41,786 bases of DNA. Origin: Bacteriovoracaceae bacterium (GTDB lineage: Bacteria; Bdellovibrionota; Bacteriovoracia; Bacteriovoracales; Bacteriovoracaceae). The notes beneath the pieces are model-generated. The model saw only the letters and a list, made by a program, of their open reading frames with translations. It was not told where the DNA came from and searched no databases. The position numbers were made by a program, and so were the translations under genes. Location: positions 1-41,786 of the forward strand of contig JABIHA010000044.1 in NCBI GenBank assembly GCA_018649885.1. The letters run 5' to 3'. Shown in pieces: positions 30,181-41,786 of this stretch (its first letter is position 1; each line of letters opens with the position of its first letter).

Positions 30181-32079
30181 TCACCAATCCTTTTTGGCAT
30201 TTCCCTTAGTCTTTTGATTTGTATGCCTCTTGTCAGAGGTTGTTGTATCCATATATTGATTTTGAATCTTACGATCATCACTTAAAAGCTGTTTTAACTG
30301 AGCGGGAATTTTTTTCTTTCTCATGGGTTTCTGGCCCTGCTTCTTCTTTGCCGTCCTCTTTTTGGCCTTCTTCTCTTTGCCCTTTCCGTCCTGGTCCTTA
30401 TCTTTATCTTTATCGCCCTTTCCGTCCTGGTCCTTATCTTTATCTTTATCGCCCTTTTCACCCTTTTCTTTTTTTTCTTTTTCGCCTTTTCCCTGCTCTT
30501 TCGACTCACCCTCTTGGTCTTTTGAGTCTTGCTCTTTTTGCTGGTCGCCCTTGCCACCTTGGGAATCTTTTTGTTTTTTTTCTCCGCCCTCTTTTCCTTC
30601 GCCGTCTTTCTTATCGTCTTTTTGACCTTTTTGGTCCTGATCTTTTTGATCCTTTTTTTTCTTGTCCTCTTTTTCTTTCTCTTTTTTCTTTTTCTGATCT
30701 TGTTGCTTTTGATTTAAGGCCATCTTCACATTGTCTTTTAAAAGACTTTTTAGATCCTCACTTTCAAGTCTGTCGTAGAGATTCTTTGCCAGCGGAATTC
30801 CTTTTCTCAGATTTTTGCTAGCAAGAAGTGAAGTTGTGTAATTAAAGAGATCATTTGAGTTAAGATTTTCTAGATTTGTCCCACCCAAAGTTTCATCATA
30901 TAAAACAGCTGCCTCTTTAAATTTCTTGGCCCTTAATAAAAGCTCTCCTAGCTTCAACCTTTCACTTTTTGAAGCTTTCCCACTTTTCATTTTCTTTATT
31001 AACTCAAGAGGCAGCTTTGCCTGTTCCACTTGGATGGGCTTTGCTTGCTCACTTGCCATAGAAGGAGTTGAGAGAATGAATCCAAACAAAACAAAAGGTA
31101 CCGCAAAGCTTGGGGCCATACGAAAAAGTGTACCCAGAATAATTAAAGCAAGTGCAGGTAGTGTTAGGTACCCTATTAGGACTGGTTTAATTCTAATATC
31201 GCCCTTGGAGTATTTGATTTTATGAACACTATTAAAAAAACGAATGATTTCCTCTGTTGGTATGGAATATGAAGTGGCTATCCAGTAGCGAAAGTACTTA
31301 ATATCATCGGCCATCTTTTTAATAAGAGTTTCGCCTAGCTTAGAGACAATCTCCTTACCTTGAAATTTCTTATACCCCTTAAAATTTCCAGTAGATGTTC
31401 GAATTGGTATCGGTCCACCTTTGAGAGTCCCCACCCCCACAACTGAAACTGAAACGCCATCAGGAACATCAAGAGATAGCGGCGTTGAAGTTTCCTCAGA
31501 GTCTGTGAATACCAGCACATTACCGCTAATTTTTGCAAACTCAGTTTTGGAAGTTTTCAAATAACCTAAGCTTTCTTGAATCGCCATGCTTAGATTCGAT
31601 CCCCCACGGCCTAGTCGGAGAACCTTTAGGCTGGCAATTCTGGCATCAAGTAAATCAATATCGGTGGTAAAGGGAACTACTTGTTTTTGAAAATCAGAAA
31701 ATAAAACAACAGAAATCTGGTGACCATAGGCCCTTTTCACAAAATGCCTTGCCAGAAAGAGCACCTTTTCAAAGCGATTGGGTCTAACATCCTCAACTAA
31801 CATACTAGCAGACGTATCAATCAGAATAATCGTCTTTTGCTCAGGAATTTTTGATTCAATTTTAATTTCTTTTCCGCGCAAATCTAAAAGAGAAACCGCC
31901 AGTAGTGCCAAGCCAGAAAGAAATAAAAATGAAGCAATTTTGCTATAAGAGCTTCTTTCAAAAAACCAATGATCATTTACCCATTTGTAAAAAAGGTTTT
32001 CCTTCCTTACATATAGAAAAATAAATACCACAAGGGATATTAAAATATAGGGTAGTAAATGAAGTTTATCAAAGTTCAT
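30181..32079 (-). CDS. BatB-BatC-like fusion: VWA domain, TM, TPR, K/D/Q/E-rich linker
   Basis: MIDAS DTSASM; PNRF; FTDSE; GGPIP; C-terminal KDW typical of BatC. Confidence 0.82.
   Translation of the reverse strand: MNFDKLHLLPYILISLVVFIFLYVRKENLFYKWVNDHWFFERSSYSKIASFLFLSGLALLAVSLLDLRGKEIKIESKIPEQKTIILIDTSASMLVEDVRPNRFEKVLFLARHFVKRAYGHQISVVLFSDFQKQVVPFTTDIDLLDARIASLKVLRLGRGGSNLSMAIQESLGYLKTSKTEFAKISGNVLVFTDSEETSTPLSLDVPDGVSVSVVGVGTLKGGPIPIRTSTGNFKGYKKFQGKEIVSKLGETLIKKMADDIKYFRYWIATSYSIPTEEIIRFFNSVHKIKYSKGDIRIKPVLIGYLTLPALALIILGTLFRMAPSFAVPFVLFGFILSTPSMASEQAKPIQVEQAKLPLELIKKMKSGKASKSERLKLGELLLRAKKFKEAAVLYDETLGGTNLENLNSNDLFNYTTSLLASKNLRKGIPLAKNLYDRLESEDLKSLLKDNVKMALNQKQQDQKKKKEKEKEDKKKKDQKDQDQKGQKDDKKDGEGKEGGEKKQKDSQGGKGDQQKEQDSKDQEGESKEQGKGEKEKKEKGEKGDKDKDKDQDGKGDKDKDKDQDGKGKEKKAKKRTAKKKQGQKPMRKKKIPAQLKQLLSDDRKIQNQYMDTTTSDKRHTNQKTKGNAKKDW
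30379..30457. repeat. Perfect 36-bp tandem repeat (about 2.2 copies) encoding KGDKDKDKDQDG
   Basis: gccctttccgtcctggtccttatctttatctttatc at 30379-30414 and 30415-30450, then a partial copy. Confidence 0.95.
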
Positions 32080-33056
32080 ACTACTTCTTTTAGAGCAAGC
32101 TTTCTAAGAGACTCTGTCAAAATGAGGCCAATAACTCCGGCCAGAAGAAAGTTAAAAAATAGCTCTTGGTAAACAACTTGGTTATGTGTTTTGATCTTAG
32201 TTTTTTCAAGTTTGTTAATTGTATCAAGTACTGACTTGAGTGCCTTTTTGTCTCTTGCCACATAGGCCTTGGCGCCTGTTATATCTGCAATTTCTTTCAA
32301 CGTTTTTAAGTCGTAGCTGCCTCCGGGAAGATACTGGTACCTTTGGCCGAAAATTGAGTTAGTACCACCAATGGGCATCCTCGCCTTTTTATCTGAGCCC
32401 ATTCCGATGGTATACACCCGAACGCCTTGCTCCTTTGCTTGCTTAGCTGCTTCTATAGGAGTCAAATTGCCTACATTACTGACACCATCAGTTAGAAGAA
32501 CAACCACCTTACTCTTTGCTTCACTTAATGCTTCCCTGGCTACTGCAAGGCCTAAAGCGTCTCCTATATTTGTCCCACTTCCTAAGAAGCCAATCTTAAT
32601 TTGATCGATCACTTGATCAATTAGTGAAATATCAGTTGTTAAAGGAAGAAGGGTATAGGCCCTTTCAGAAAACATAATAATCCCGAGCCGATCGGCGGGT
32701 TTCATTTTAATGAATTCTCTAATCTTTTCTTTGGCGACTCCAAGCCTATTAGGTACAAAGTCCTCGGCCAGCATAGACTTCGAAACATCTACCACGAAAA
32801 ATATATCGTTTACTTCAATTTCATTTTCTGTGTATGATGTTGGCTTTCTAGGTTGCATCAGGGCAAAGCTTAACAGCCCCCAAGAAATCAGTCCCAATAG
32901 AAAAAGGCTCCACCTAGTAAAACTTCCCTTTCTAGATTTTTGGACGCTTTGTGGAAAATGCAGCTCAGGACGCTTAAAAATTTTAAAATACTCAATAGTC
33001 CATATAATGGCGCCCGCAATCCCTATAATGGCATAACCTACGTGCTTATACTCCAT
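32076..33056 (-). CDS. batA: BatA-like VWA domain membrane protein (start 33056 or 33062)
   Basis: MIDAS DVSKSM; PNRL; GTNIGDAL; LLTDG; YTIGMG; INKLEKT; GGAGA RBS fits 33056. Confidence 0.88.
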   Translation of the reverse strand: MEYKHVGYAIIGIAGAIIWTIEYFKIFKRPELHFPQSVQKSRKGSFTRWSLFLLGLISWGLLSFALMQPRKPTSYTENEIEVNDIFFVVDVSKSMLAEDFVPNRLGVAKEKIREFIKMKPADRLGIIMFSERAYTLLPLTTDISLIDQVIDQIKIGFLGSGTNIGDALGLAVAREALSEAKSKVVVLLTDGVSNVGNLTPIEAAKQAKEQGVRVYTIGMGSDKKARMPIGGTNSIFGQRYQYLPGGSYDLKTLKEIADITGAKAYVARDKKALKSVLDTINKLEKTKIKTHNQVVYQELFFNFLLAGVIGLILTESLRKLALKEVV

Positions 33057-33855
33057 CAACATTCTCCAGTAGCTCTGCCCTTAAGCTAGCTACTTCCTTT
33101 AACTCTTCATCAGTCCACTCTGGCTTATATTGAATTAATTCAACCTTTCGAATTAACAAGCGACTCTCTCCTTGTTTGAGAGAAATGGCGTCCCATTCTT
33201 TTCTATTTTTCACTAAATCTTCAAATTCTTTTCTTGTGTTGGCGTCTGCTATTTTTTTAGTCCAAACTCTTTGTCTTTCTTCTTCTTTTTTCTTATTTTT
33301 GTTTTTGAGATAGGTTTTTGAAAATATCAAATAGCCGATTACAAGAAGAAATAATCCAGCAAGGCCACCCATTATCCCATTTTTGTACCTTGCCCAAAGG
33401 CCCGCAGCCTTTGTGTAATTAGAATCAAGTATATTAAAAGCATTTGCCTTCAATTGCCTATCGCCAACACGTTCGATTCCTTGAAATGTGACAGGAATTA
33501 ACAATTTGTTTATTTCTAAAGTATGAAGCTCAGCATATAAAAAGGGCTTAGCAATCGTTAGATATATCTCAATGACCACCGCCTCACTATTATTAACTGA
33601 TCTTTCAATTTTCAAAACGCTTGAAACATAAAAAAATCCAAATATATCCTTGTCTTCTAAATCATTTTTTTTGAATACAATATCTTGAGGTGTTGGCCAA
33701 ATAGTTAGCCTCGCCCAAATTGTATCCCCAACCTCAAGTTTTCTGGAAGACTCAAGGTTTTCTAGTTTTCCTTGAATATGAGACGGAGTAATTTGAGCAA
33801 ATCCAGCCTGAAGAGTGCAAAGGGTAAAAAGTACTAATAAAAGTGGTTTCCTCAC
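33046..33855 (-). CDS. Bat-operon accessory exported/membrane protein
   Basis: Signal peptide, beta domain, single TM, charged tail; between DUF58 and BatA. Confidence 0.6.
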   Translation of the reverse strand: MRKPLLLVLFTLCTLQAGFAQITPSHIQGKLENLESSRKLEVGDTIWARLTIWPTPQDIVFKKNDLEDKDIFGFFYVSSVLKIERSVNNSEAVVIEIYLTIAKPFLYAELHTLEINKLLIPVTFQGIERVGDRQLKANAFNILDSNYTKAAGLWARYKNGIMGGLAGLFLLVIGYLIFSKTYLKNKNKKKEEERQRVWTKKIADANTRKEFEDLVKNRKEWDAISLKQGESRLLIRKVELIQYKPEWTDEELKEVASLRAELLENVDGV

Positions 33856-34706
33856 AGCATCTCCTTGATAAAATTTTCAAGATAGCGCTCCGTAAGTTTC
33901 AAAGGCTTTACCTTTCTTCCTAAAAGTTTTTTTAATTCATTGTGCTTAGTTTGAGCATCAATATTAAAAACCTTCTCCCCAGTTCCCTCAATGCCTGAGT
34001 TATAAGCGTAAACACTATAAGGCATCTTATCGTATTCATCGAGAGGTGAAATAAGTTGAAAGCAGTGAAGATTTTTTTTATAAAATAGATGCTTAATCTC
34101 TTCGATCGGTAGAAATGCATTAAAATCACTTAATAATACAATTTCTTTTTTCTTATGAAGATGTTTAAAAAGCATTTTTAGTTTTCGGTCAGAGTCATCA
34201 TATATAGTTTTCGAACTGGGTACAATTACTCTGCCTTCACTATCCAAAAGGTTCATCTTTTGGAGCTCAGCAACGAGCATAACAATTCCATCTTTTCCCG
34301 TTTTCATGGGAAGGGTATTGATTTTCTCACCGACGATAATAGGTTGAACGTAATCATTTGTTTCTTTGGTAATTAGAAATAGTAAGCAGCAAATTTCTAA
34401 GGCCATTTGAAGTTTAGAAACTCCTTTGTGGCCATATAGCATGGGAAGAGAGGCATCAATAACAACAATTATTTCTATATTACGCTCTTCTTCAAATGTT
34501 TTAATATATGGATTGCCTGTTCTGGCGAGAAGCTTCCAATCAATAAATCTTACGTCATCTCCGTGTGCATAAACTTGATGCTCTTTGAAGATTAATCCTG
34601 AACCTCGAAAGTGAGATTTAAGCATACCAATTGAATATGAATTGGAGTTTTTAAATAATTGAGATTGTATTCTTTGTGCAGCCTTCTCTACTGCTTTTAA
34701 ATCCAT
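33852..34706 (-). CDS. DUF58-domain protein (start revised to ATG 34706)
   Basis: FRGSGLIFKEHQVYAHGDDVRFIDWK, KTFEEER, DAS and LSDF; follows MoxR. Confidence 0.9.
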   Translation of the reverse strand: MDLKAVEKAAQRIQSQLFKNSNSYSIGMLKSHFRGSGLIFKEHQVYAHGDDVRFIDWKLLARTGNPYIKTFEEERNIEIIVVIDASLPMLYGHKGVSKLQMALEICCLLFLITKETNDYVQPIIVGEKINTLPMKTGKDGIVMLVAELQKMNLLDSEGRVIVPSSKTIYDDSDRKLKMLFKHLHKKKEIVLLSDFNAFLPIEEIKHLFYKKNLHCFQLISPLDEYDKMPYSVYAYNSGIEGTGEKVFNIDAQTKHNELKKLLGRKVKPLKLTERYLENFIKEML

Positions 34707-34710
34707 GGCG

Positions 34711-35661
34711 CTACACCACCGACTTTGCAATTTCCAGTGCGACACTCCGTCCAGTCATTTTATCAATCGAGGCTTCATAGGTAAGAAGAATTCTGTGTCC
34801 CATGACTTCCGGAATAACCGAAATTAAATGATCGGGAGTTACAAAATTCTTGCCTTCCATAAAGGCCTTAAATTTTGAGAGTCGATATAACCAAATAGAG
34901 GCACGCGGGCTTGCACCAGCGAGAACTGCACCCTCCATAGAACGGTAAAAATCTCGCGATCCAGGCCTTGTGGCGTGAACCATTCTCACTATCATGTCCT
35001 TAATTTTATCATCTACGTATATTTTTCCAATTTCATCTTTTAACTCTATGAGATCATCCGTTGATAATACTGGCTCAAGGGAATCAATATCACTTTTATT
35101 GAGATCTAAAATGCTTTTTTCTGCTTCAAAATCTGGGTAATCAATAGAGAGCTTCATCATGAAACGATCAAGTTGAGCTTCAGGTAAATTATATGTCCCT
35201 TCCTGCTCAATAGGGTTTTGGGTTGCAAGTACTACAAATGGTCTTGAAAGCTTATGAGTTGTATCTCCAATAGTCACTTGCCTTTCCGCCATGGCCTCCA
35301 GCAAAGCTGACTGAACCTTAGCAGGGGATCTGTTAATTTCATCTGCTAAAAGAATCTGTGTAAAGATTGGGCCAAATTTTGTAGTAAATTCATCCTTACT
35401 TTGATTATAAATCATCGTCCCAATCAAATCTGAAGGTAATAAATCGGGGGTGAACTGAACTCTTTTAAAAGCGAGGTCACACAATCGGCTCATAGTCCAA
35501 ACACTCAAAGTTTTTCCGAGTCCTGGCATACCCTCAATTAGTAGGTGTCCCTCGCAAACAAGGGAAGCAATAATCCCCTCAAGCATATTTGATTGTCCAA
35601 AGATTACTCCATTGGCCTTTGATAAGGTTTGAAGCACTCGCTCTCTTAATTCTTCACTCAT
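34711..35661 (-). CDS. moxR: MoxR-family AAA+ ATPase (start revised to ATG 35661)
   Basis: EGMPGLGKT, QFTPDLLPSD, LADEINR, ATQNPIEQEGTY, DRF, GASPRA. Confidence 0.95.
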   Translation of the reverse strand: MSEELRERVLQTLSKANGVIFGQSNMLEGIIASLVCEGHLLIEGMPGLGKTLSVWTMSRLCDLAFKRVQFTPDLLPSDLIGTMIYNQSKDEFTTKFGPIFTQILLADEINRSPAKVQSALLEAMAERQVTIGDTTHKLSRPFVVLATQNPIEQEGTYNLPEAQLDRFMMKLSIDYPDFEAEKSILDLNKSDIDSLEPVLSTDDLIELKDEIGKIYVDDKIKDMIVRMVHATRPGSRDFYRSMEGAVLAGASPRASIWLYRLSKFKAFMEGKNFVTPDHLISVIPEVMGHRILLTYEASIDKMTGRSVALEIAKSVV

Positions 35662-35662
35662 T

Positions 35663-36868
35663 TCAAGTCTCCACAAAATATATTAGATGCTTTATGTAAT
35701 TCGCTTTTGAGCTCAAACTTGTCACCGGGTGATCAAAACCCTGCATTCCAATGTCGAGAAGAGTGACTTTTTTACCCTCAAGAGTAGCCGCTCTTTGCAC
35801 CGTTTCATCTAGCTCAATAAGACTCACGCAACTAGTGCACGAACCAATGGAAATTATACCATTTGGCTGGGTAAGTTTCATCATTTTAGTATGTAGTTTT
35901 GAGTATCCTCTTAGGGCCGTTTTTTTATCTTTTTGGCTCTTTGCAAAAGCCGGAGGGTCACTGGCAATAATGTCATACTTTTCTCCGCGGTTAATCTCCT
36001 CGTCGAGCAAATTAAAAACATCACTACGAACAAAGCGCCCCCTGCCTGAGAACTCATTTTGTTCAATATGCCCTGAAACTACTGACTCGAAATTTCCTTG
36101 GTCAACAAATGTGACATCCAGGACGCCTGACCTAAGGAGGTGGAGGCCCCATGAACCCACATAGCAAAATAAATCGAGTCCTTTTTTCTTTGGGCCACCA
36201 AATTTATTTAAGAAATTTTCTAAAGACTGTCTATTTTCACGATGATCAAAATAATAACCTACTTTTTGGGCCAAGTTTGAGGGAATACTATAATTGAGTC
36301 CACATTCGCTAAACTCCAAATCACCTTTTTCTAACTCTTTTTCAAAACAAGGTAGGCCTTCAGCCTGCCTGTAGCGACTTTGGTCCCAAAAAAGTACTAT
36401 TGATTGAGGATATATTTCTGAAAGTGCAGTTTTAATAAATTCCCGATAACGGTCAATTCCTGCTGAATTTATTTGCAATAAAATCTTATCACCGTACTTA
36501 TCTGCAATTAGTCCAAATAGCCCATCCTCAACTCCATAGAATAACCTGTAAGAATTTTCCTCAGCAAGGAGCAGCTTCCTTTTACCTACGGCCCTTGTAA
36601 TCAAATTCTTAATAGTATTTTCTATAAAACTCTCACTCTCTTCCACCTGTACAGGAGTGAGATAGGCAGGGATAAGATTGAGAATCGGCTGATTATCCCT
36701 TGTTTGGGTATTTATAAATCCTAACCGGGTGATATTTTCACCTTGGACACTAACCCATTCTCCAGGAGTGAATGATCTGGATAGTTTTTCAATATCTTTT
36801 TCGTAGAAACTATTCACACCACGCCCAAGTTTCGACAAAACACCTTTTTTTAACTCAATAGTTTTCAA
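35663..36868 (-). CDS. Class I SAM-dependent rRNA methyltransferase, RlmI/RlmK-like
   Basis: QKVGYYFDHRENR, LDLFCYVGSWG, DPPAFAKS, SC, DHP; TTG start. Confidence 0.85.
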   Translation of the reverse strand: MKTIELKKGVLSKLGRGVNSFYEKDIEKLSRSFTPGEWVSVQGENITRLGFINTQTRDNQPILNLIPAYLTPVQVEESESFIENTIKNLITRAVGKRKLLLAEENSYRLFYGVEDGLFGLIADKYGDKILLQINSAGIDRYREFIKTALSEIYPQSIVLFWDQSRYRQAEGLPCFEKELEKGDLEFSECGLNYSIPSNLAQKVGYYFDHRENRQSLENFLNKFGGPKKKGLDLFCYVGSWGLHLLRSGVLDVTFVDQGNFESVVSGHIEQNEFSGRGRFVRSDVFNLLDEEINRGEKYDIIASDPPAFAKSQKDKKTALRGYSKLHTKMMKLTQPNGIISIGSCTSCVSLIELDETVQRAATLEGKKVTLLDIGMQGFDHPVTSLSSKANYIKHLIYFVET

Positions 36869-36895: not shown

Positions 36896-37723
36896 TTATT
36901 TTGACTGCCCAATCCTCGCCAGCTTTTGCTGGGCCTTACCTTTATTGATTTGATAATTTCGAAAATCGAGAGTGAATAAATTATTTCTTTTATACAATTT
37001 ATTTCTTTTCATAGGTTGCTTTAATTTTTGAGATGAATAAATATTTATTTCATCTGGAATCCAAAATCCATCTTTTTGCATATGCCTAATATAAATTTTC
37101 GTCTCTTCCTCTTGTCCCCTGCGAGAAATGACTTTTCTGGCTTCTTTTACATAGCTCATTTTTTTGCTTTTTTTGTTTCGACTGAGACTAATATAATATT
37201 CAGTGGCACCATTACTGGTCATTTTTGTGATTTTTTTCAGATCCGATTTTTTATCTAAGCTCAGCACGATCTCACTAATAAAATTTAATTCATCTTTAGG
37301 TACACAAACCACTCTTTTCTTACCCTTATCACTTCGATAGAAAAGATCAAACCCTGAAAGCTCATCTTCAAGCTTTCTTGGAAACAAGTACTCAAGTTTT
37401 TCTTCAATGATTTTTCTAAGATCTTCTTTTAGTTTAGGAAATCCTGTTGAAGGAATTCCTTTAATTTCAATATGCCTTTTCCCACTAGATACCCAATAGA
37501 CTTTAAAAACGAGGTTATTAATATCCCCAAATATAAGCGCGTCGTTAAGCTTTTTCCTAATTTGAGGAGCGTAAATATCAACAGCTAAATCTGTTAGCCC
37601 ATGATCTTGAGCTCGGTAGGTTGTTTGATCGATTGACCTGACAATGCCTAGGGCATTAACCTCGCCCGCACTACTTTGAGATAGAATAAATGTTGTTAGA
37701 AAAATTTTAACAAAAAAATTCAT
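36896..37723 (-). CDS. Exported hypothetical protein, possibly LolA-like fold
   Basis: Signal peptide; C-terminal DGFWIPDEI and FRNYQINKG resemble lipoprotein-sorting-like proteins. Confidence 0.5.
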   Translation of the reverse strand: MNFFVKIFLTTFILSQSSAGEVNALGIVRSIDQTTYRAQDHGLTDLAVDIYAPQIRKKLNDALIFGDINNLVFKVYWVSSGKRHIEIKGIPSTGFPKLKEDLRKIIEEKLEYLFPRKLEDELSGFDLFYRSDKGKKRVVCVPKDELNFISEIVLSLDKKSDLKKITKMTSNGATEYYISLSRNKKSKKMSYVKEARKVISRRGQEEETKIYIRHMQKDGFWIPDEINIYSSQKLKQPMKRNKLYKRNNLFTLDFRNYQINKGKAQQKLARIGQSK

Positions 37724-37736
37724 TGAGTTTCCGAAC

Positions 37737-39068
37737 CTAAGACAAATTTTGACTCCAGTCCTTATTATATACTACCTTCAAGTATTTCTCTTTCTTATAC
37801 CTCACTTTTCCAGCCGCTCCCTTCACTGCTTTTAGATTTTTAACCTGAGTAAACAAAACCGGTATCTCTAAAATTTCAAGGTTACTTTTATCCCTGAGGG
37901 CCGAGGCCACATCGGCCATGTCCTCACTGGTAAGCTCAGAAATACTTTCGACCTTTGCGATGCAGTGGCTACTTGGATATCCATCGAGATGAAACCAAAT
38001 ATTTTGAGCACTGGCCCATGAAGATCGCAATGCGTCGTTTGATTTTGCACTACTTCCAAAACCAAATTGAATTCCTTTGGCATTTCGGTAGGTCTCAAAC
38101 CCCCCTCCAGCTTTTTGAGTGCTTATAGCTTTTGGCGATCTGATATGTTTCCAAATGGGGGTCACTACCTTTTTAGCAGGCCTTGCAATTCCGCCGCGGG
38201 CCTTAAGCTCCTTCATCTGATCCAGCACCTCATCAAGCCTTACTTTTTGAAAAGACAGACCTTTTTTATATCTTTTCAATCGATCATAAATTTCACTTCT
38301 TCTTTTCTCATTGCTCCAATCTTTTTCAAACTTTACTTTCATTCCCTTAAACTCATAGCGAGTAGTATTCATAAAGTTTGCTGTATCAATGCCTTCATAT
38401 AAACCGAGGTAGTCTTTTAATCTCTTAACATCTTTAGAAATCTTTAAAAATTTCCTCTCTAAAAATTTTGACTGTGCCTTGGCCTGTACCTCTTCACAAG
38501 CTGTTCCATCATCTTCTAAAAATATCTCATCCGTAATAGCTAATTCTTCAAGCTTACTCTTTGTTCGCCTTCCCACCTCAGTAAATAAATCAAAAAATGG
38601 GGCTATTTCCTCTGAATACAACCTTACAGTTTCTTTAAAAAACCAAGATTTTCTGATCTGGTAATTTTCCATGTCACTTGATCTTGCCTCTAAGAAATAG
38701 TTTTCTCTACCACAATAAAATAGGTAAAAATCGAGATATTCATTTTGCCCATAAAGCTGGAACTCAATTATTCGATCATTTTCATCGCAAATGATTTTCT
38801 TTAACTTCTTACCCCTTACATGCTTTCTTAAATATTCTAGAAACTTATCTCGAATTCTCTGATTTGAAGGAATTCTTGTCTCGGACCTCCAAATCCCCTC
38901 AACACCACCACCACGGCCCAAGATTAGGAACAAGGTTTTCCCAGGAATCCTGATATGGAACTCTATGGATCTAGCCGTACTATAAATTTTTTGTACAATT
39001 CCACCCTCACCCAACATTTCATTAAGGGATTGAACTTGAGAGTATAAATGACTATGATTGAGAATCAT
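37737..39068 (-). CDS. rqcH: RqcH/Rqc2/FbpA-family NFACT protein (start revised to ATG 39068)
   Basis: NFACT-N pattern (LNEMLGEGGIVQKIY, FLEYLRKHVRG, NDRII); coiled coil; NFACT-R (GSSAKSNDAL, IWFHLDGYPSSH, TQVKNLK). Confidence 0.8.
   Translation of the reverse strand: MILNHSHLYSQVQSLNEMLGEGGIVQKIYSTARSIEFHIRIPGKTLFLILGRGGGVEGIWRSETRIPSNQRIRDKFLEYLRKHVRGKKLKKIICDENDRIIEFQLYGQNEYLDFYLFYCGRENYFLEARSSDMENYQIRKSWFFKETVRLYSEEIAPFFDLFTEVGRRTKSKLEELAITDEIFLEDDGTACEEVQAKAQSKFLERKFLKISKDVKRLKDYLGLYEGIDTANFMNTTRYEFKGMKVKFEKDWSNEKRRSEIYDRLKRYKKGLSFQKVRLDEVLDQMKELKARGGIARPAKKVVTPIWKHIRSPKAISTQKAGGGFETYRNAKGIQFGFGSSAKSNDALRSSWASAQNIWFHLDGYPSSHCIAKVESISELTSEDMADVASALRDKSNLEILEIPVLFTQVKNLKAVKGAAGKVRYKKEKYLKVVYNKDWSQNLS
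39030..39058 (+). promoter_or_regulatory. Sigma70-type promoter of mutS2, inside the rqcH coding sequence (probable leaderless)
   Basis: TTGAAC (39030-39035), 17 nt spacer, TATGAT (39053-39058), then 8 nt to the ATG at 39067. Confidence 0.55.
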
Positions 39069-41454
39069 GAAGCTTAACCTACTTGATTTTCCTGACAAAC
39101 AATTCTTTAGCTATATTGATTGGCCGTCTATCATTAATACTATTTCAAAAAATATGTATTTTGAACATTCAAGTTTTATTTTAGCCGGAGATTTAAGACA
39201 TCGCACCTCTGGTCAGATCAAAAGTTACTTTGAAACAATTAAATCAACAATTCTTTTCATTAACTCTGATTTATATGCCGCATTTAGAAATGATCTCAAC
39301 TTCATCGATTCACGAGTTCATTTTTACGAGTTAATTGAGAGAATCTCAAAAAGTAGTGAGCTCGGTATTGAGGAGATAAACTCTCTTGTTAATTTACTTG
39401 AGCTTTATCACCTAGTTAAGGGAAGATTCACTGAATCTCCCGTTCTTGCTGAAAGTATGATTGATCCCGAGACTTTCAAGTCTATTCACGCAAGACTAAT
39501 CAAACCTTTTCGGTACTTTGTCTCCAAAGAGGGGGACATTGAGTATGAAAAGCATCCCCTACTCAGACCTTTGTATCATGAGCTAAGAAGTCTCGATTCA
39601 AAGATTAAAAAAGAAATTAACTCTTTTTTAAAAGATCCGGACAAAAGTCGCGTTCTCCAGTTTAATAATTACGACATTATTAATGATATTTACGTCCTGC
39701 CCATAAGAAGTGATTCTTATAGTACCAGGATTGGCAAAATCATCGCAAAGTCAGAAACTGGACATACACTATATGTAGAACCTAATGCCATTCGCGAGCT
39801 TTCAAATATTCGAATGCAAAAGCTCTATGAGATTGAATTTGAAATTTCGAAAATTTGTCGTGAAATTTGTAGTGAAGTGTTTGAACTCATAGAAAGCATA
39901 AGATCTGTTTCAGTGTTCACCTATACTCTCGATACATTAGTCGCCAAAGCCCGATATATTGAAGAGCTGGCCTTGGTAGAGCCTGAGATTTCTGATACAC
40001 CCAAAATGAAGATTGAAGGGTTTTTTCATCCTATGATTGAAAATCCTGTTAAAAATGACCTGTGCTTTGACGACACTCATGCAGGGTTAATCATTTCTGG
40101 TCCCAACACTGGAGGGAAAACCGTCTCTCTCAAGGCGATTTCAGTTTGCCACCTTTTCATCAATTTTGGTCTCTTTGTTCCAGCAGACTACGCGTGCCTC
40201 TATCCATTTGAGAATATTTTCTACTTAAGCCATGACCAACAAAACTTGGCCCAAGGCTTGAGTTCTTTTTCTTCAGAAGTTAGAAATTACCTCGCTCTCG
40301 TTGACCAGCTGGGAGACTCAAATCTAATTGTTATTGATGAAATATTTAACTCCACAAGCTCCGATGAGGCGAGTGCACTGGCCGTTGGCCTGATTCATCA
40401 TATAGAGGAAATTTCAAATTCAAGGTTCATTATATCTACCCATCACAAATTACTTAAAACTCATTACCATCACGATAAGAGATTTCTCTCAGGCCATGTT
40501 GGCTACGATCAAAAAAATGAAGTTCCAAACTATAAATTAAATGTTGGAACCCCAGGGAGCTCATTCGCACTTAAAATTTTTGAAAAGATCTCAAAACCAT
40601 TTCCAGATCTTTATGGAATTGTAGGCCAGGCAAAAACTATTTTATCCGAAAACCTCATAAAATATGAAGAACTGCTTCAGTCAGTGACACAGAGAAATTT
40701 TGAGCTTGAAGAATTGTTACATGAAAACAAAGTCATAAACCAAGAGTTAATCAATCAAAAAAAAGAGCATGAGGGTGTTTTAAAATTACAAACCAGACAA
40801 TACTTTGAGAGATATAAAGACAAAGTCGATAGGTTAATAGAGAGATACAATGATTCAATTTCTCAAATAAAAGATGGCAAAGTCATTACTGTCAAAGAAG
40901 CCACGGTAAAATTCAAAGATCTAAAAAACGAATATTCAGACCTTGCAGATACGGCTTATGGTGAGAAAAAAGAACAAGTAAAAGATCTGGTCTCTGCCAG
41001 TGAAATCAAAGTTGGGGAACAGTATTTTTGTAAGCAAATTGGGAAGGTTGTAAAAGTTGTTAATTCCAATACAAGGAAAAAGATTGCCACCGTTCTACAT
41101 GGCAAAATCAAGGTTGGAGTTGGCTTTGATCAATTATTCTTAACTAGTACAAATATTAACAAAATTAAACCAAAGTTTGAATCATTCTACCCAGATACTG
41201 CACCTAATATGGATATTGATTGTAGAGGATTTAGACTGGAAGAATTTCAAAGAGTGGTAGAGAATTCCTTAAACGACCTAATTAATGAATCTGTCACACA
41301 CCTAGTGGTAATACATGGTCATGGTGATGGAATATTAAAAGGATGGCTGAGAAAGTATCTTCGAAAAAACCCGAAATTTTCATGGAGCGCCCCAGAAGGA
41401 TTTGCTGATGGTGCCACTCGAATAGAAATGAAAGCTGGTGGTGATAACTCTTAA
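39067..41454 (+). CDS. mutS2: MutS2 (RqcU-like) ATPase with KOW-like and C-terminal Smr domains
   Basis: SETGHTLYVEP; ISGPNTGGKT; LSSFS; IDE; STH; GTPGSSFA; coiled coil; Smr DCRG and IHGHGDG; no mismatch-binding domain. Confidence 0.92.
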   Translation: MKLNLLDFPDKQFFSYIDWPSIINTISKNMYFEHSSFILAGDLRHRTSGQIKSYFETIKSTILFINSDLYAAFRNDLNFIDSRVHFYELIERISKSSELGIEEINSLVNLLELYHLVKGRFTESPVLAESMIDPETFKSIHARLIKPFRYFVSKEGDIEYEKHPLLRPLYHELRSLDSKIKKEINSFLKDPDKSRVLQFNNYDIINDIYVLPIRSDSYSTRIGKIIAKSETGHTLYVEPNAIRELSNIRMQKLYEIEFEISKICREICSEVFELIESIRSVSVFTYTLDTLVAKARYIEELALVEPEISDTPKMKIEGFFHPMIENPVKNDLCFDDTHAGLIISGPNTGGKTVSLKAISVCHLFINFGLFVPADYACLYPFENIFYLSHDQQNLAQGLSSFSSEVRNYLALVDQLGDSNLIVIDEIFNSTSSDEASALAVGLIHHIEEISNSRFIISTHHKLLKTHYHHDKRFLSGHVGYDQKNEVPNYKLNVGTPGSSFALKIFEKISKPFPDLYGIVGQAKTILSENLIKYEELLQSVTQRNFELEELLHENKVINQELINQKKEHEGVLKLQTRQYFERYKDKVDRLIERYNDSISQIKDGKVITVKEATVKFKDLKNEYSDLADTAYGEKKEQVKDLVSASEIKVGEQYFCKQIGKVVKVVNSNTRKKIATVLHGKIKVGVGFDQLFLTSTNINKIKPKFESFYPDTAPNMDIDCRGFRLEEFQRVVENSLNDLINESVTHLVVIHGHGDGILKGWLRKYLRKNPKFSWSAPEGFADGATRIEMKAGGDNS

Positions 41455-41523
41455 TTTGTAAAAATTGGATTTCGAACTGACAGCGGCCTCAAAGAGGTTT
41501 TGATTTAACCTGATATGGGGCCC

Positions 41524-41748
41524 TTATACTTTGACTTGCCCGATTGTCACTTGCCCTTGCCCGAGAATTACTGGCAATTTGCCATATCCCTCTGCAAAAT
41601 TGAGCACAATAAATAAAAATTCTCTTTGCAATTGATCTTTAAACTCTCTTCTTCCTTTTGGAAGTTTTTGGATGATCGACTCTGAATGTGACAGAAAAAG
41701 AACAGACTTTTTGTAAATATCCATTTTCTCATGGTGTATTACTTTCAT
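41524..41748 (-). pseudogene. Truncated, decayed four-helix-bundle protein (23S rRNA IVP-like family)
   Basis: HEKMDIYKKS, LPK, KDQLQR and VLNFAEGYGK match the first half of the family; the ORF then runs into the left inverted repeat; AGAGG RBS intact. Confidence 0.72.
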
Positions 41749-41786
41749 TTTTTCCTCTTTTTTCGGGCAAGGGCAAGTGACAATCG
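41541..41786. repeat. Perfect inverted repeats of at least 24 bp flanking the four-helix-bundle gene
   Basis: cgattgtcacttgcccttgcccga (41541-41564) is the exact reverse complement of tcgggcaagggcaagtgacaatcg (41763-41786, cut by the window edge). Confidence 0.95.

What the first reader, a model, noticed from the sequence alone, without database searches (positions are those of the whole stretch)
37737..41454. RqcH and MutS2 encoded head-to-head with start codons sharing one CATG
Seen: the likely rqcH ATG (minus, 39068-39066) and mutS2 ATG (plus, 39067-39069) overlap inside the palindrome TCATGA, leaving no intergenic DNA. Each promoter must therefore lie in the other gene. A TTGAAC-17-TATGAT promoter for mutS2 is inside rqcH, and an AGGT RBS-like site for rqcH is inside mutS2. 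Known: in Bacillus subtilis MutS2 (RqcU) splits collided ribosomes and RqcH Ala-tails the resulting 50S-peptidyl-tRNA. Inference: two sequential ribosome-quality-control steps are locked into a bidirectional unit, possibly co-regulated by promoter interference or antisense overlap.
Basis: partly seen in the sequence, partly recalled or inferred. Interest (0 to 1): 0.72.

Follow-up and report, generated by a model that had tools for sequence, protein, structure and literature searches.

The report
Backward mutS2 locked against rqcH start
Two genes for consecutive steps of rescuing stalled ribosomes point away from each other and begin on the same four letters across most of a family of predatory bacteria, and each likely has its promoter written inside the other, so their messages would overlap and could dampen one another.

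Summary
The overlap is real. rqcH (minus, ATG 39068-39066) and mutS2 (plus, ATG 39067-39069) share CATG, and homologues fix both starts.

It is family-wide: 65 of 97 Bacteriovoracaceae loci holding both genes, in 32 of 50 genera. It is unique among 695 divergent pairs in this genome. The scan found it before in another genome (e1-7299424).

New here:
(1) In relatives mutS2 is a lone backward gene inside rlmE-pbp-lepB-[mutS2]-rqcH-...-rlmI-moxR-bat. Wherever mutS2 is gone (8 of 8 loci), lepB or pbp abuts rqcH.
(2) The AGGT ribosome site is not conserved. Modest sequence evidence favours a leaderless or short-leader mutS2 mRNA and an rqcH promoter 65-110 nt inside mutS2, so the rqcH leader would be antisense to the mutS2 start.
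(3) This RqcH is shortened (no HhH pair), and no RqcP/Hsp15 was found (0 of 20 genomes), so Ala-tailing is unproven.

Start-start overlaps, excludons and non-contiguous operons are known kinds. A conserved rqcH-mutS2 gene linkage was not found in the papers searched. No usable RNA data exist, so regulation is inferred.

The parts
39066..39069 (.). Shared CATG: minus ATG of rqcH (39068-39066) and plus ATG of mutS2 (39067-39069)
   Evidence: Sequence; kept in 65 of 97 family loci with both genes
37737..39068 (-). rqcH-like gene, 443 aa: NFACT-N, coiled coil with middle hairpin, NFACT-R. DR motif (D98-R99) and W358/H360 kept; HhH pair missing
39067..41454 (+). mutS2, 795 aa: MutS ATPase (Walker A 345-352, Walker B near 420-425) and C-terminal Smr domain (DCRG 718, HGHGDG 750)
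   Evidence: TIGR01069 over cut-off; Pfam MutS_V and Smr; motifs
39030..39058 (+). Predicted sigma-70-type promoter for mutS2 (TTGAAC-17-TATGAT) inside rqcH codons 4-13. The -10 ends 8 nt before the ATG, so the mRNA would have a leader of 0-3 nt
   Evidence: equivalent site conserved within genera; not measured
39137..39165 (-). Candidate rqcH-direction promoter (TTCAAA-17-TAGTAT) inside mutS2, -10 ending 68 nt before the rqcH ATG. A second candidate -10 (TAAAAT) lies at 39183-39178
   Evidence: family zone 65-110 nt favoured; predicted only
39077..39080 (-).
36896..37723 (-). 275-aa gene 13 nt after rqcH with a signal-peptide-like N-terminus; DUF3386/LolA-like look-alikes; follows rqcH in many relatives
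32076..36868 (-). Rest of the co-directional run led by rqcH: RlmI-like 23S rRNA methyltransferase, MoxR-type ATPase (name recalled), DUF58-like protein (name recalled), membrane protein, BatA-like vWA protein
41485..41499 (+). Weak terminator-like hairpin after mutS2
   Evidence: 5 found, 3.6 expected by chance; not found by my stricter script

Best explanation
mutS2 and a shortened rqcH share their start codons, and the junction is likely held in place because each gene's first codons carry the other's promoter, with mutS2 predicted to be read from a leaderless or nearly leaderless message and rqcH from a leader that begins about 65-110 bases inside mutS2.

Shown: the overlap; both starts; family-wide conservation; absence of Shine-Dalgarno signals; in relatives, mutS2 as a single backward gene between lepB (tail to tail) and rqcH (head to head) in an otherwise one-way gene run.

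Inferred: the promoter positions; that the rqcH leader is antisense to the first 60-100 nt of the mutS2 mRNA, including its AUG; that this gives excludon-like damping (polymerase interference, RNase III), felt mainly by mutS2 when the rqcH operon is strongly on and small at basal rates.

From established knowledge of B. subtilis: MutS2 splits collided ribosomes and RqcH acts on the resulting 50S-peptidyl-tRNA. Whether this RqcH still adds Ala tails is open.
For: Conservation: CATG in 32 of 50 genera. Where it slips, it mostly slips only to CATATG (15 loci, one genus) or a 9-nt gap (5 loci of one genus, plus one uncertain start).

No SD: mutS2 2 of 31, rqcH 4 of 31, genome 48% of 1297 genes. 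The genome has a leaderless class: TAnnnT 6 nt before ATG in 43 of 612 operon-first genes and 63 of 492 SD-less genes.

Within 14 genera, conserved promoter scores exceed synonymous shuffles only at 5-11 nt before mutS2 (z 2.65, 0 of 60 shuffles) and at 65-110 nt before rqcH (z 2.8, 1 of 60). The other 10 zones do not. In the two genera with shifted gaps the best mutS2 site is still 8-9 nt from the moved ATG; in g7 it is built from different codons.

Synonymous identity in rqcH codons 11-40 is 0.60-0.65 against 0.47-0.54 in neighbouring genes (p 0.033). In one genus a bidirectional terminator separates lepB from mutS2, so rqcH there needs an internal promoter (L139), and a conserved TATAAT sits 72 nt upstream. 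RNase III is present.
Against: Across genera (one genome each), synonymous shuffles explain the -10-like boxes: z 0.3-1.7; z 1.2 and 0.6 with the full promoter model. Copies that are no longer adjacent keep the same N-terminal residues (MNLNLL, MILNY), so the residues forming the -10 may be protein constraints.

The zones were chosen, and 12 zones were tested. The window's own -10 sits 8 nt from the ATG, whereas the genome's leaderless peak is at 6. Genera g20, g4 and g27 have their best mutS2 site 36-95 nt upstream. mutS2 shows no significant synonymous excess against controls (p 0.27), and rqcH against operon-first genes gives only p 0.062.

Short overlaps are generally labile and not enriched for interacting partners (10.64898/2026.09.10.750558). 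Basal bidirectional transcription in E. coli shows no interference (PMC12825309). No transcript data support any start.
Confidence: 0.5

Rival explanations
1. Non-contiguous operon: rqcH and its downstream genes are transcribed mainly from the upstream rlmE-pbp-lepB operon, reading through the whole of mutS2 on the antisense strand, so operon expression and mutS2 expression exclude each other.
For: lepB ends tail to tail with mutS2 (gap -17 to +32 nt) in 18 of 20 20-kb loci (5 of 6 genera), and within -12 to +15 nt in 13 of 18 further genera. In 8 of 8 loci (6 genera) without mutS2 at the site, lepB or pbp lies directly before rqcH on the same strand, -1 to 48 nt away where measured, with TAATG or ATGA stop-start overlaps in three. 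My script found no terminator at the lepB/mutS2 junction in 4 of 5 genera. mutS2 GC skew (-0.10 to +0.03) is low against this genome's long genes (median 0.09).
Against: The window's own genome has lost the link (lepB on C16, rlmE-pbp on C36) yet keeps CATG. One genus has a strong bidirectional terminator at the junction. Rho is present in 5 of 5 genomes and would be expected to stop 2.4 kb of untranslated RNA. The terminator script has low sensitivity, and the skew is confounded by replication strand. Non-contiguous operons cannot be predicted from sequence (PMC11034616).
Confidence: 0.2
2. Double leaderless pair: both mRNAs begin at or next to CATG, overlap by at most a few bases, and are made independently or are co-activated, without antisense pairing.
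For: TAnnnT lies 7 nt before the rqcH ATG in 14 of 31 genera and 6 or 8 nt before the mutS2 ATG in 14 and 9 of 31; this holds for about 10% of random gene starts read antisense. Neither gene has an SD. In g66 both proximal sites score best.
Against: With the full promoter model the proximal rqcH site scores poorly (mean 0.8; 1 of 31 at or above 6; z 0.9). Two loci appear to start rqcH with ATA or ATT at the same place (L014, L042; alternative GTG/TTG starts 18 nt upstream exist), which fits badly with leaderless initiation (recalled: it strongly prefers AUG). In one RNA library contigs run across the junction, though DNA cannot be excluded.
Confidence: 0.15
3. Frozen compaction: an old head-to-head neighbourship shrank until the starts overlapped. 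It persists only because almost any insertion destroys a start codon, and promoter positions drift with no regulatory meaning.
For: AT-type start-start overlaps are the default divergent overlap (73% of divergent overlaps; 10.64898/2026.09.10.750558). Adjacency was lost or loosened several times (6 genera apart, others at gaps of 15-133 nt; at least 3 changes for 'apart' on a poorly resolved tree). The best promoter sites differ between genera.
Against: The gap did change in some lineages yet mostly stayed within 10 nt. The two genes are also linked in other families in other ways: tandem in 10 of 10 genomes of one family, divergent at 19 and 44 nt in two others. That points to selection for linkage.
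Confidence: 0.15

Closest known systems
Bacillus subtilis RQC pathway: MutS2 (RqcU) splitting, then RqcH with RqcP or YlmH adding Ala tails (PMC10897456, PMC8373112, PMC11317155, 10.1101/2020.09.03.281279; passages read)
   Same: MutS2 equivalog over cut-off; RqcH fold; DR motif (24 of 29) and W/H of the DWH motif (29 of 29) kept; SmpB and an ArfB-like release factor also in the genome. The genes co-occur: all 35 sampled phylum genomes outside the family with NFACT-R have mutS2, as in the published 97% (PMC11633108).
   Different: Genes physically interlocked. RqcH is 443 aa against 570, without the HhH pair and apparently without the EIM glutamate. RqcP/Hsp15 not found in 0 of 20 family genomes, YlmH in 0 of 5.
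Start-start (AT/CATG) divergent overlaps and divergent excludons, e.g. E. coli queG-nnr (10.64898/2026.09.10.750558 Results part 1; PMC12288877 passages)
   Same: Same 2-bp AT overlap class; promoters inside the partner gene; 5' overlap predicted.
   Different: The partners are consecutive steps of one pathway. The overlap is stable across 32 genera, whereas short overlaps are reported as labile. No RNA evidence yet.
Non-contiguous operons, e.g. S. aureus menEC-01914-ytkD (PMC11034616 passages)
   Same: One backward gene inside a co-directional run, abutting both neighbours.
   Different: Read-through not shown; broken in the window's genome and blocked by a terminator in one genus.
Bidirectional promoters of E. 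coli (PMC12825309 passages)
   Same: Two polymerases compete for one short DNA stretch.
   Different: There the starts lie back to back (10, 18 or 23 bp apart) around overlapping -10 elements. Here they are predicted to face each other from inside coding sequence.

Membership tests
MutS2 (RqcU) | TIGR01069 equivalog score | tested here: met
   405.9 bits, cut-off 400
MutS2 (RqcU) | MutS ATPase with Walker A/B and C-terminal Smr domain; no mismatch-recognition domain | tested here: met
   MutS_V and Smr over cut-off, no MutS_I hit; motifs; a separate MutS1-like gene on C128
MutS2 (RqcU) | KOW domain before Smr | tested here: inconclusive
   No Pfam KOW hit at E 0.01; a beta-rich-looking stretch near 645-695 was not modelled
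MutS2 (RqcU) | Splits collided ribosomes | not testable with these tools
   Known for B. subtilis (PMC10897456)
RqcH/NEMF (NFACT) | NFACT-N, coiled coil with middle domain, NFACT-R in order | tested here: met
RqcH/NEMF (NFACT) | Two HhH motifs after NFACT-N | tested here: not met
   Profile positions 112-136 face B. subtilis 109-248; the model has one short helix and a disordered linker there
RqcH/NEMF (NFACT) | DR motif for tRNA-Ala binding | tested here: met
   D98 and R99, each 24 of 29; aligned to B. subtilis LDRI
RqcH/NEMF (NFACT) | EIM motif (E121) for tRNA binding | tested here: inconclusive
   No conserved Glu in columns 111-120; the strand reads F-[WY]-K-G. Equivalence to E121 is by eye, as the profile alignment stops at B. 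subtilis 109
RqcH/NEMF (NFACT) | DWH motif for 50S binding | tested here: met
   D 26 of 29 (N in the window), W and H 29 of 29
B. subtilis-type RQC elongation system | S4-domain cofactor RqcP, Hsp15 or YlmH in the genome | tested here: not met
   NF007673 0 of 20 family genomes while it rings in B. subtilis; PF17774 0 of 5; the only small S4 protein seen is YbcJ/YaaA-like. A divergent copy could be missed
B. subtilis-type RQC elongation system | Ala-tailing activity | not testable with these tools
   Needs biochemistry or proteomics
Start-start AT overlap | Both real ATG starts share AT | tested here: met
Divergent excludon | Overlapping 5' transcripts with antagonistic expression | tested here: inconclusive
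   Promoter prediction only; public RNA contigs uninformative
Non-contiguous operon | Backward gene flanked by co-directional operon genes | tested here: met
   In relatives; not in the window's genome
Non-contiguous operon | One transcript spanning the backward gene | not testable with these tools
   No raw or long RNA reads were offered

The most novel reading that the evidence does not exclude
Bacteriovoracaceae run a stripped ribosome quality-control module: an RqcH without HhH domains and without RqcP or YlmH. Its splitter MutS2 is encoded backwards inside the rqcH operon and translated from a leaderless mRNA. The antisense overlap and the 70S-dependence of leaderless initiation would then form a built-in switch that raises ribosome splitting when intact 70S ribosomes pile up or the growth operon (rlmE, pbp, lepB, rlmI) shuts down, for example between the attack and growth phases of the predator.
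Probability: 0.12. Interest if true: 0.8.

Novelty: new variant of a known kind. Interest (0 to 1): 0.5.

Why it matters
Little is known about how bacteria regulate the MutS2-RqcH rescue route. A 2014 survey found no conserved neighbourhood for bacterial NFACT genes (PMC4075521), and later work reports co-occurrence only (PMC11633108).

Here the two genes are linked in three layouts within one phylum: shared start, short divergent gap and tandem. That is genomic support that they act as a unit outside Firmicutes.

The locus gives one 200-bp stretch in culturable predators where leaderless translation, antisense overlap and polymerase interference can be tested on a ribosome-rescue pathway. The shortened RqcH without a detectable RqcP asks whether Ala-tailing can run with fewer parts. 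For annotation, the overlap leads gene callers to a shortened start (P0001).

Tried and rejected
Searches that gave nothing:
- The search for related loci in genome contigs found nothing with the single protein, and the alignment was too variable to use. Organism names therefore come only from homologue labels (Bacteriovoracales, Bacteriovoracaceae, Peredibacter, Halobacteriovoraceae).
- RNA: one run search with L035 gave 24 runs, all contigs, one on record as RNA. In X18, contigs 588-699 and 670-783 chain across the junction (CATG at 696-699), and one 151-nt record ends exactly at the rqcH ATG (697). Coverage is patchy, strains are mixed and DNA cannot be excluded, so neither observation is used as evidence.

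Ideas tested and dropped or downgraded:
- My first idea, two leaderless mRNAs: the cross-genus synonymous tests were negative. Kept as a rival only.
- The first profile of synonymous conservation had no control. With neighbouring genes as control, the generic effect in codons 2-10 accounts for much of it, and only rqcH keeps an excess.
- Downstream starts (Met18 for RqcH, Met30 for MutS2) rejected on homologue alignment and structure.
- The 87-aa S4 frame in two genomes is YbcJ/YaaA-like, not RqcP.
- The RqcH tree is poorly resolved (2 of 26 inner branches starred; the careful run did not finish), so the order of gains and losses is not established.
- Start-region folding energies do not differ much from the genome's.
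- No complex prediction was run, since MutS2 and RqcH act in sequence on the ribosome and no direct binding is claimed.
Full report
OBSERVATION. The window is the whole contig C79 of a 5.4-Mb, 92% complete genome. TCATGA lies at 39065-39070. The plus ATG at 39067 opens 795 codons and the minus ATG at 39068 opens 443. The plus protein is MutS2 (TIGR01069 405.9 bits, cut-off 400; MutS_V and Smr). The minus protein is RqcH-like: Pfam NFACT_N and NFACT-R_1 are below cut-off, but the family profile hits B. subtilis RqcH at E 1e-20, and the model (mean pLDDT 86.5) finds RqcH chains first in the PDB. Homologue labels place the family in Bacteriovoracaceae and kin. Both starts are fixed by homology: 25 of 31 genus representatives have a stop within 5 codons upstream of the mutS2 ATG, 28 of 31 have no other Met in 30 codons, and RqcH Met1 aligns in 23 of 29 rows.

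CONSERVATION. RqcH-like genes were found in 204 of 212 family genomes. I examined 110 loci: the 30 best and 80 stretches I picked to spread over genera, mostly from the 150 listed rows, so the set is not a random sample. Five were set aside: two lack the rqcH start and three are relocated mutS2 starts. Of the 105 left, 97 have mutS2 divergent from rqcH: 65 share CATG, 15 have CATATG (one genus), 6 a 9-nt gap and 11 other gaps from -21 to 133, some with uncertain starts. Eight have no mutS2 there (the cut part was reprinted). By genus, 32 of 50 show CATG, 44 adjacency and 6 none. Kin are not independent, but RqcH identity to the window is only 24-34%. In the window's genome, only this pair among 695 divergent neighbours shares CATG at credible starts (rough gene caller). 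Outside the family, all 35 sampled phylum genomes with an NFACT-R hit also have mutS2. Ten of ten genomes of one family have tandem rqcH-mutS2, two genomes are divergent with 19- and 44-nt gaps, one has two genes between, and 22 are unlinked. Four family genomes lack both genes (G012, G097-G099), and five have rqcH with no mutS2 found (G009, G020, G127, G146, G237).

In relatives mutS2 is the only backward gene in a long run: sigma-54 regulator, rlmE, a penicillin-binding-type protein, signal peptidase I (lepB), then mutS2 reversed, then rqcH, a DUF3386-like gene, an RlmI-like methyltransferase, MoxR-, DUF58- and Bat-type genes (the MoxR and DUF58 names are recalled). lepB meets mutS2 tail to tail in 18 of 20 20-kb loci (5 of 6 genera, gap -17 to +32; three of the 18 were read from size and neighbours because my motif label failed or a spurious frame intervened). 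It does so within -12 to +15 nt in 13 of 18 further genera; two have lepB 0.5 and 1.9 kb away and three show none. In all 8 loci without mutS2 at the site, lepB or pbp directly precedes rqcH on the same strand, three with stop-start overlap. This is the layout of a non-contiguous operon. Against read-through as a rule: the window's genome has lepB and rlmE-pbp on other contigs, one genus has a -17.9 kcal/mol bidirectional terminator at the junction, and Rho is present in 5 of 5 genomes.

HOW THE TWO GENES ARE LIKELY EXPRESSED. The AGGT site scores -4.3 kcal/mol here, but across 31 genera only 4 rqcH and 2 mutS2 starts reach -4.4, against 48% of 1297 genes and 6.6% of antisense controls. The genome has a leaderless class (TAnnnT 6 nt before ATG: 43 of 612 operon-first genes, against 6-36 at other spacings). 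TAnnnT lies 6 or 8 nt before mutS2 in 14 and 9 of 31 genera and 7 nt before rqcH in 14 of 31, but synonymous shuffles reproduce this (z 0.3-1.7), and separated copies keep the same residues. A full -35/-10 model across genera also gave no significant excess (z 1.2, 0.6). Within 14 genera, with a null that shares codons among members, two of twelve zones stood out: 5-11 nt before mutS2 (z 2.65, 0 of 60) and 65-110 nt before rqcH (z 2.8, 1 of 60). The zones were chosen, so this is modest. In the genera with gaps of 0 and 9 nt the best mutS2 site stays 8-9 nt from the ATG. Synonymous identity is raised over rqcH codons 11-40 (0.60-0.65 against 0.47-0.54; p 0.033 against all 47 control genes, 0.062 against 23 operon-first ones) but not significantly over mutS2 (p 0.27). 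In the window the matching rqcH-direction candidate is TTCAAA-17-TAGTAT at 39165-39137. The best reading is therefore asymmetric: mutS2 leaderless or nearly so, and rqcH with a leader that is antisense to the first 60-100 nt of mutS2. Inferred consequence: mutual damping, mostly of mutS2, by interference or RNase III (present); at basal rates it may be slight. Public RNA data could not test this.

IS THE PATHWAY THE B. SUBTILIS ONE? DR (24 of 29) and W/H of DWH (29 of 29) are kept; these motifs bind tRNA and the 50S in B. subtilis (10.1101/2020.09.03.281279, passages; PMC8373112, passages). About 115 residues covering the HhH pair are missing, and no conserved Glu was seen where EIM is expected (by eye). 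An Hsp15 model that rings in B. subtilis found nothing in 20 family genomes and two weak hits in 111 phylum genomes; YlmH_RBD found nothing in 5 of 5. SmpB and an ArfB-like factor are present. So the protein works like RqcH by fold and by two of three motifs, but it fails the HhH test, and Ala-tailing is not shown.

COMPARISON WITH PRINT. Divergent overlaps are 0.9% of short bacterial overlaps, 73% of them the AT start-start type, and short overlaps are described as labile (10.64898/2026.09.10.750558, abstract and Results part 1 of 2). queG-nnr is listed as a divergent excludon and part of a non-contiguous operon in E. coli (PMC12288877, passages); that it shares CATG I take from earlier scan notes, unchecked. 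Non-contiguous operons: PMC11034616, passages. Bidirectional promoters: PMC12825309, passages. Long divergent overlaps are usually mis-annotations: PMC2478687, passages. MutS2 function: PMC10897456, passages; 10.1101/2021.08.16.456513, passages. Cofactor distribution: PMC11317155, passages. Co-occurrence of 97%: PMC11633108, passages. No conserved neighbourhood for bacterial NFACT genes: PMC4075521, passages. No TSS map for Bacteriovorax: PMC11789641, passages. Searches listed no paper on rqcH-mutS2 adjacency. Cerullo et al. 2022 (recalled, not read) and supplements of the papers above, which I did not open, could mention it. The scan reported the same arrangement earlier in another genome (e1-7299424); a search for the lepB context in earlier notes returned nothing.

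VERDICT. A real, family-wide start-start overlap joining two steps of one rescue pathway, built from known kinds of parts. The backward-gene-in-an-operon context and the reduced RqcH are the additions; regulation is inferred. Interest 0.5.

Noticed in passing
G039, G048, G056, G241, G247, G253, G259, G265, G271, G276 (family f4); e.g. L114, L118: In another family of the phylum rqcH and mutS2 form a tandem rqcH-mutS2 pair in 10 of 10 sampled genomes.
   Followed up: partly
L111:1651-1675; L112:764-813; L113:1614-2900: Divergent rqcH/mutS2 in three more families, with gaps of 19 nt, 44 nt, and two inserted genes. In L111 a TAGGAT lies 6 nt before the rqcH ATG, as for a leaderless mRNA.
   Followed up: partly
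phylum sample: RqcP/Hsp15-like genes were nearly absent from 111 Bdellovibrionota genomes although 53 carry NFACT-R; a possible phylum-wide RqcP-free RQC.
   Followed up: partly
G000 genome-wide: A clear leaderless gene class (TAnAAT exactly 6 nt before ATG; 63 of 492 SD-less genes) in a Bacteriovoracaceae genome.
   Followed up: partly
L014 and L042, at the junction: rqcH appears to begin with ATA or ATT at the usual position (TATG, AATG instead of CATG); GTG/TTG starts 18 nt upstream are alternatives.
   Followed up: no
window 41524-41786 (minus): Contig-end fragment with a weak four-helix-bundle/23S rRNA IVP hit (PF05635, E 0.001) where relatives have lepB; it contains short repeats of a GGGCAAGTGACAA-like motif.
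   Followed up: no
window 36896-37723 (minus): Conserved 275-aa probable exported protein after rqcH, no Pfam hit; Atlas look-alikes are DUF3386 and lipoprotein-sorting-like folds.
   Followed up: partly
L139, between lepB and mutS2: Perfect bidirectional terminator hairpin (-17.9 kcal/mol) in the genus that has CATATG instead of CATG; only one locus of that genus was scanned.
   Followed up: no
G009, G020, G127, G146, G237: rqcH kept while no mutS2 was found, suggesting another splitter or another role for RqcH (G237 is 85% complete).
   Followed up: partly
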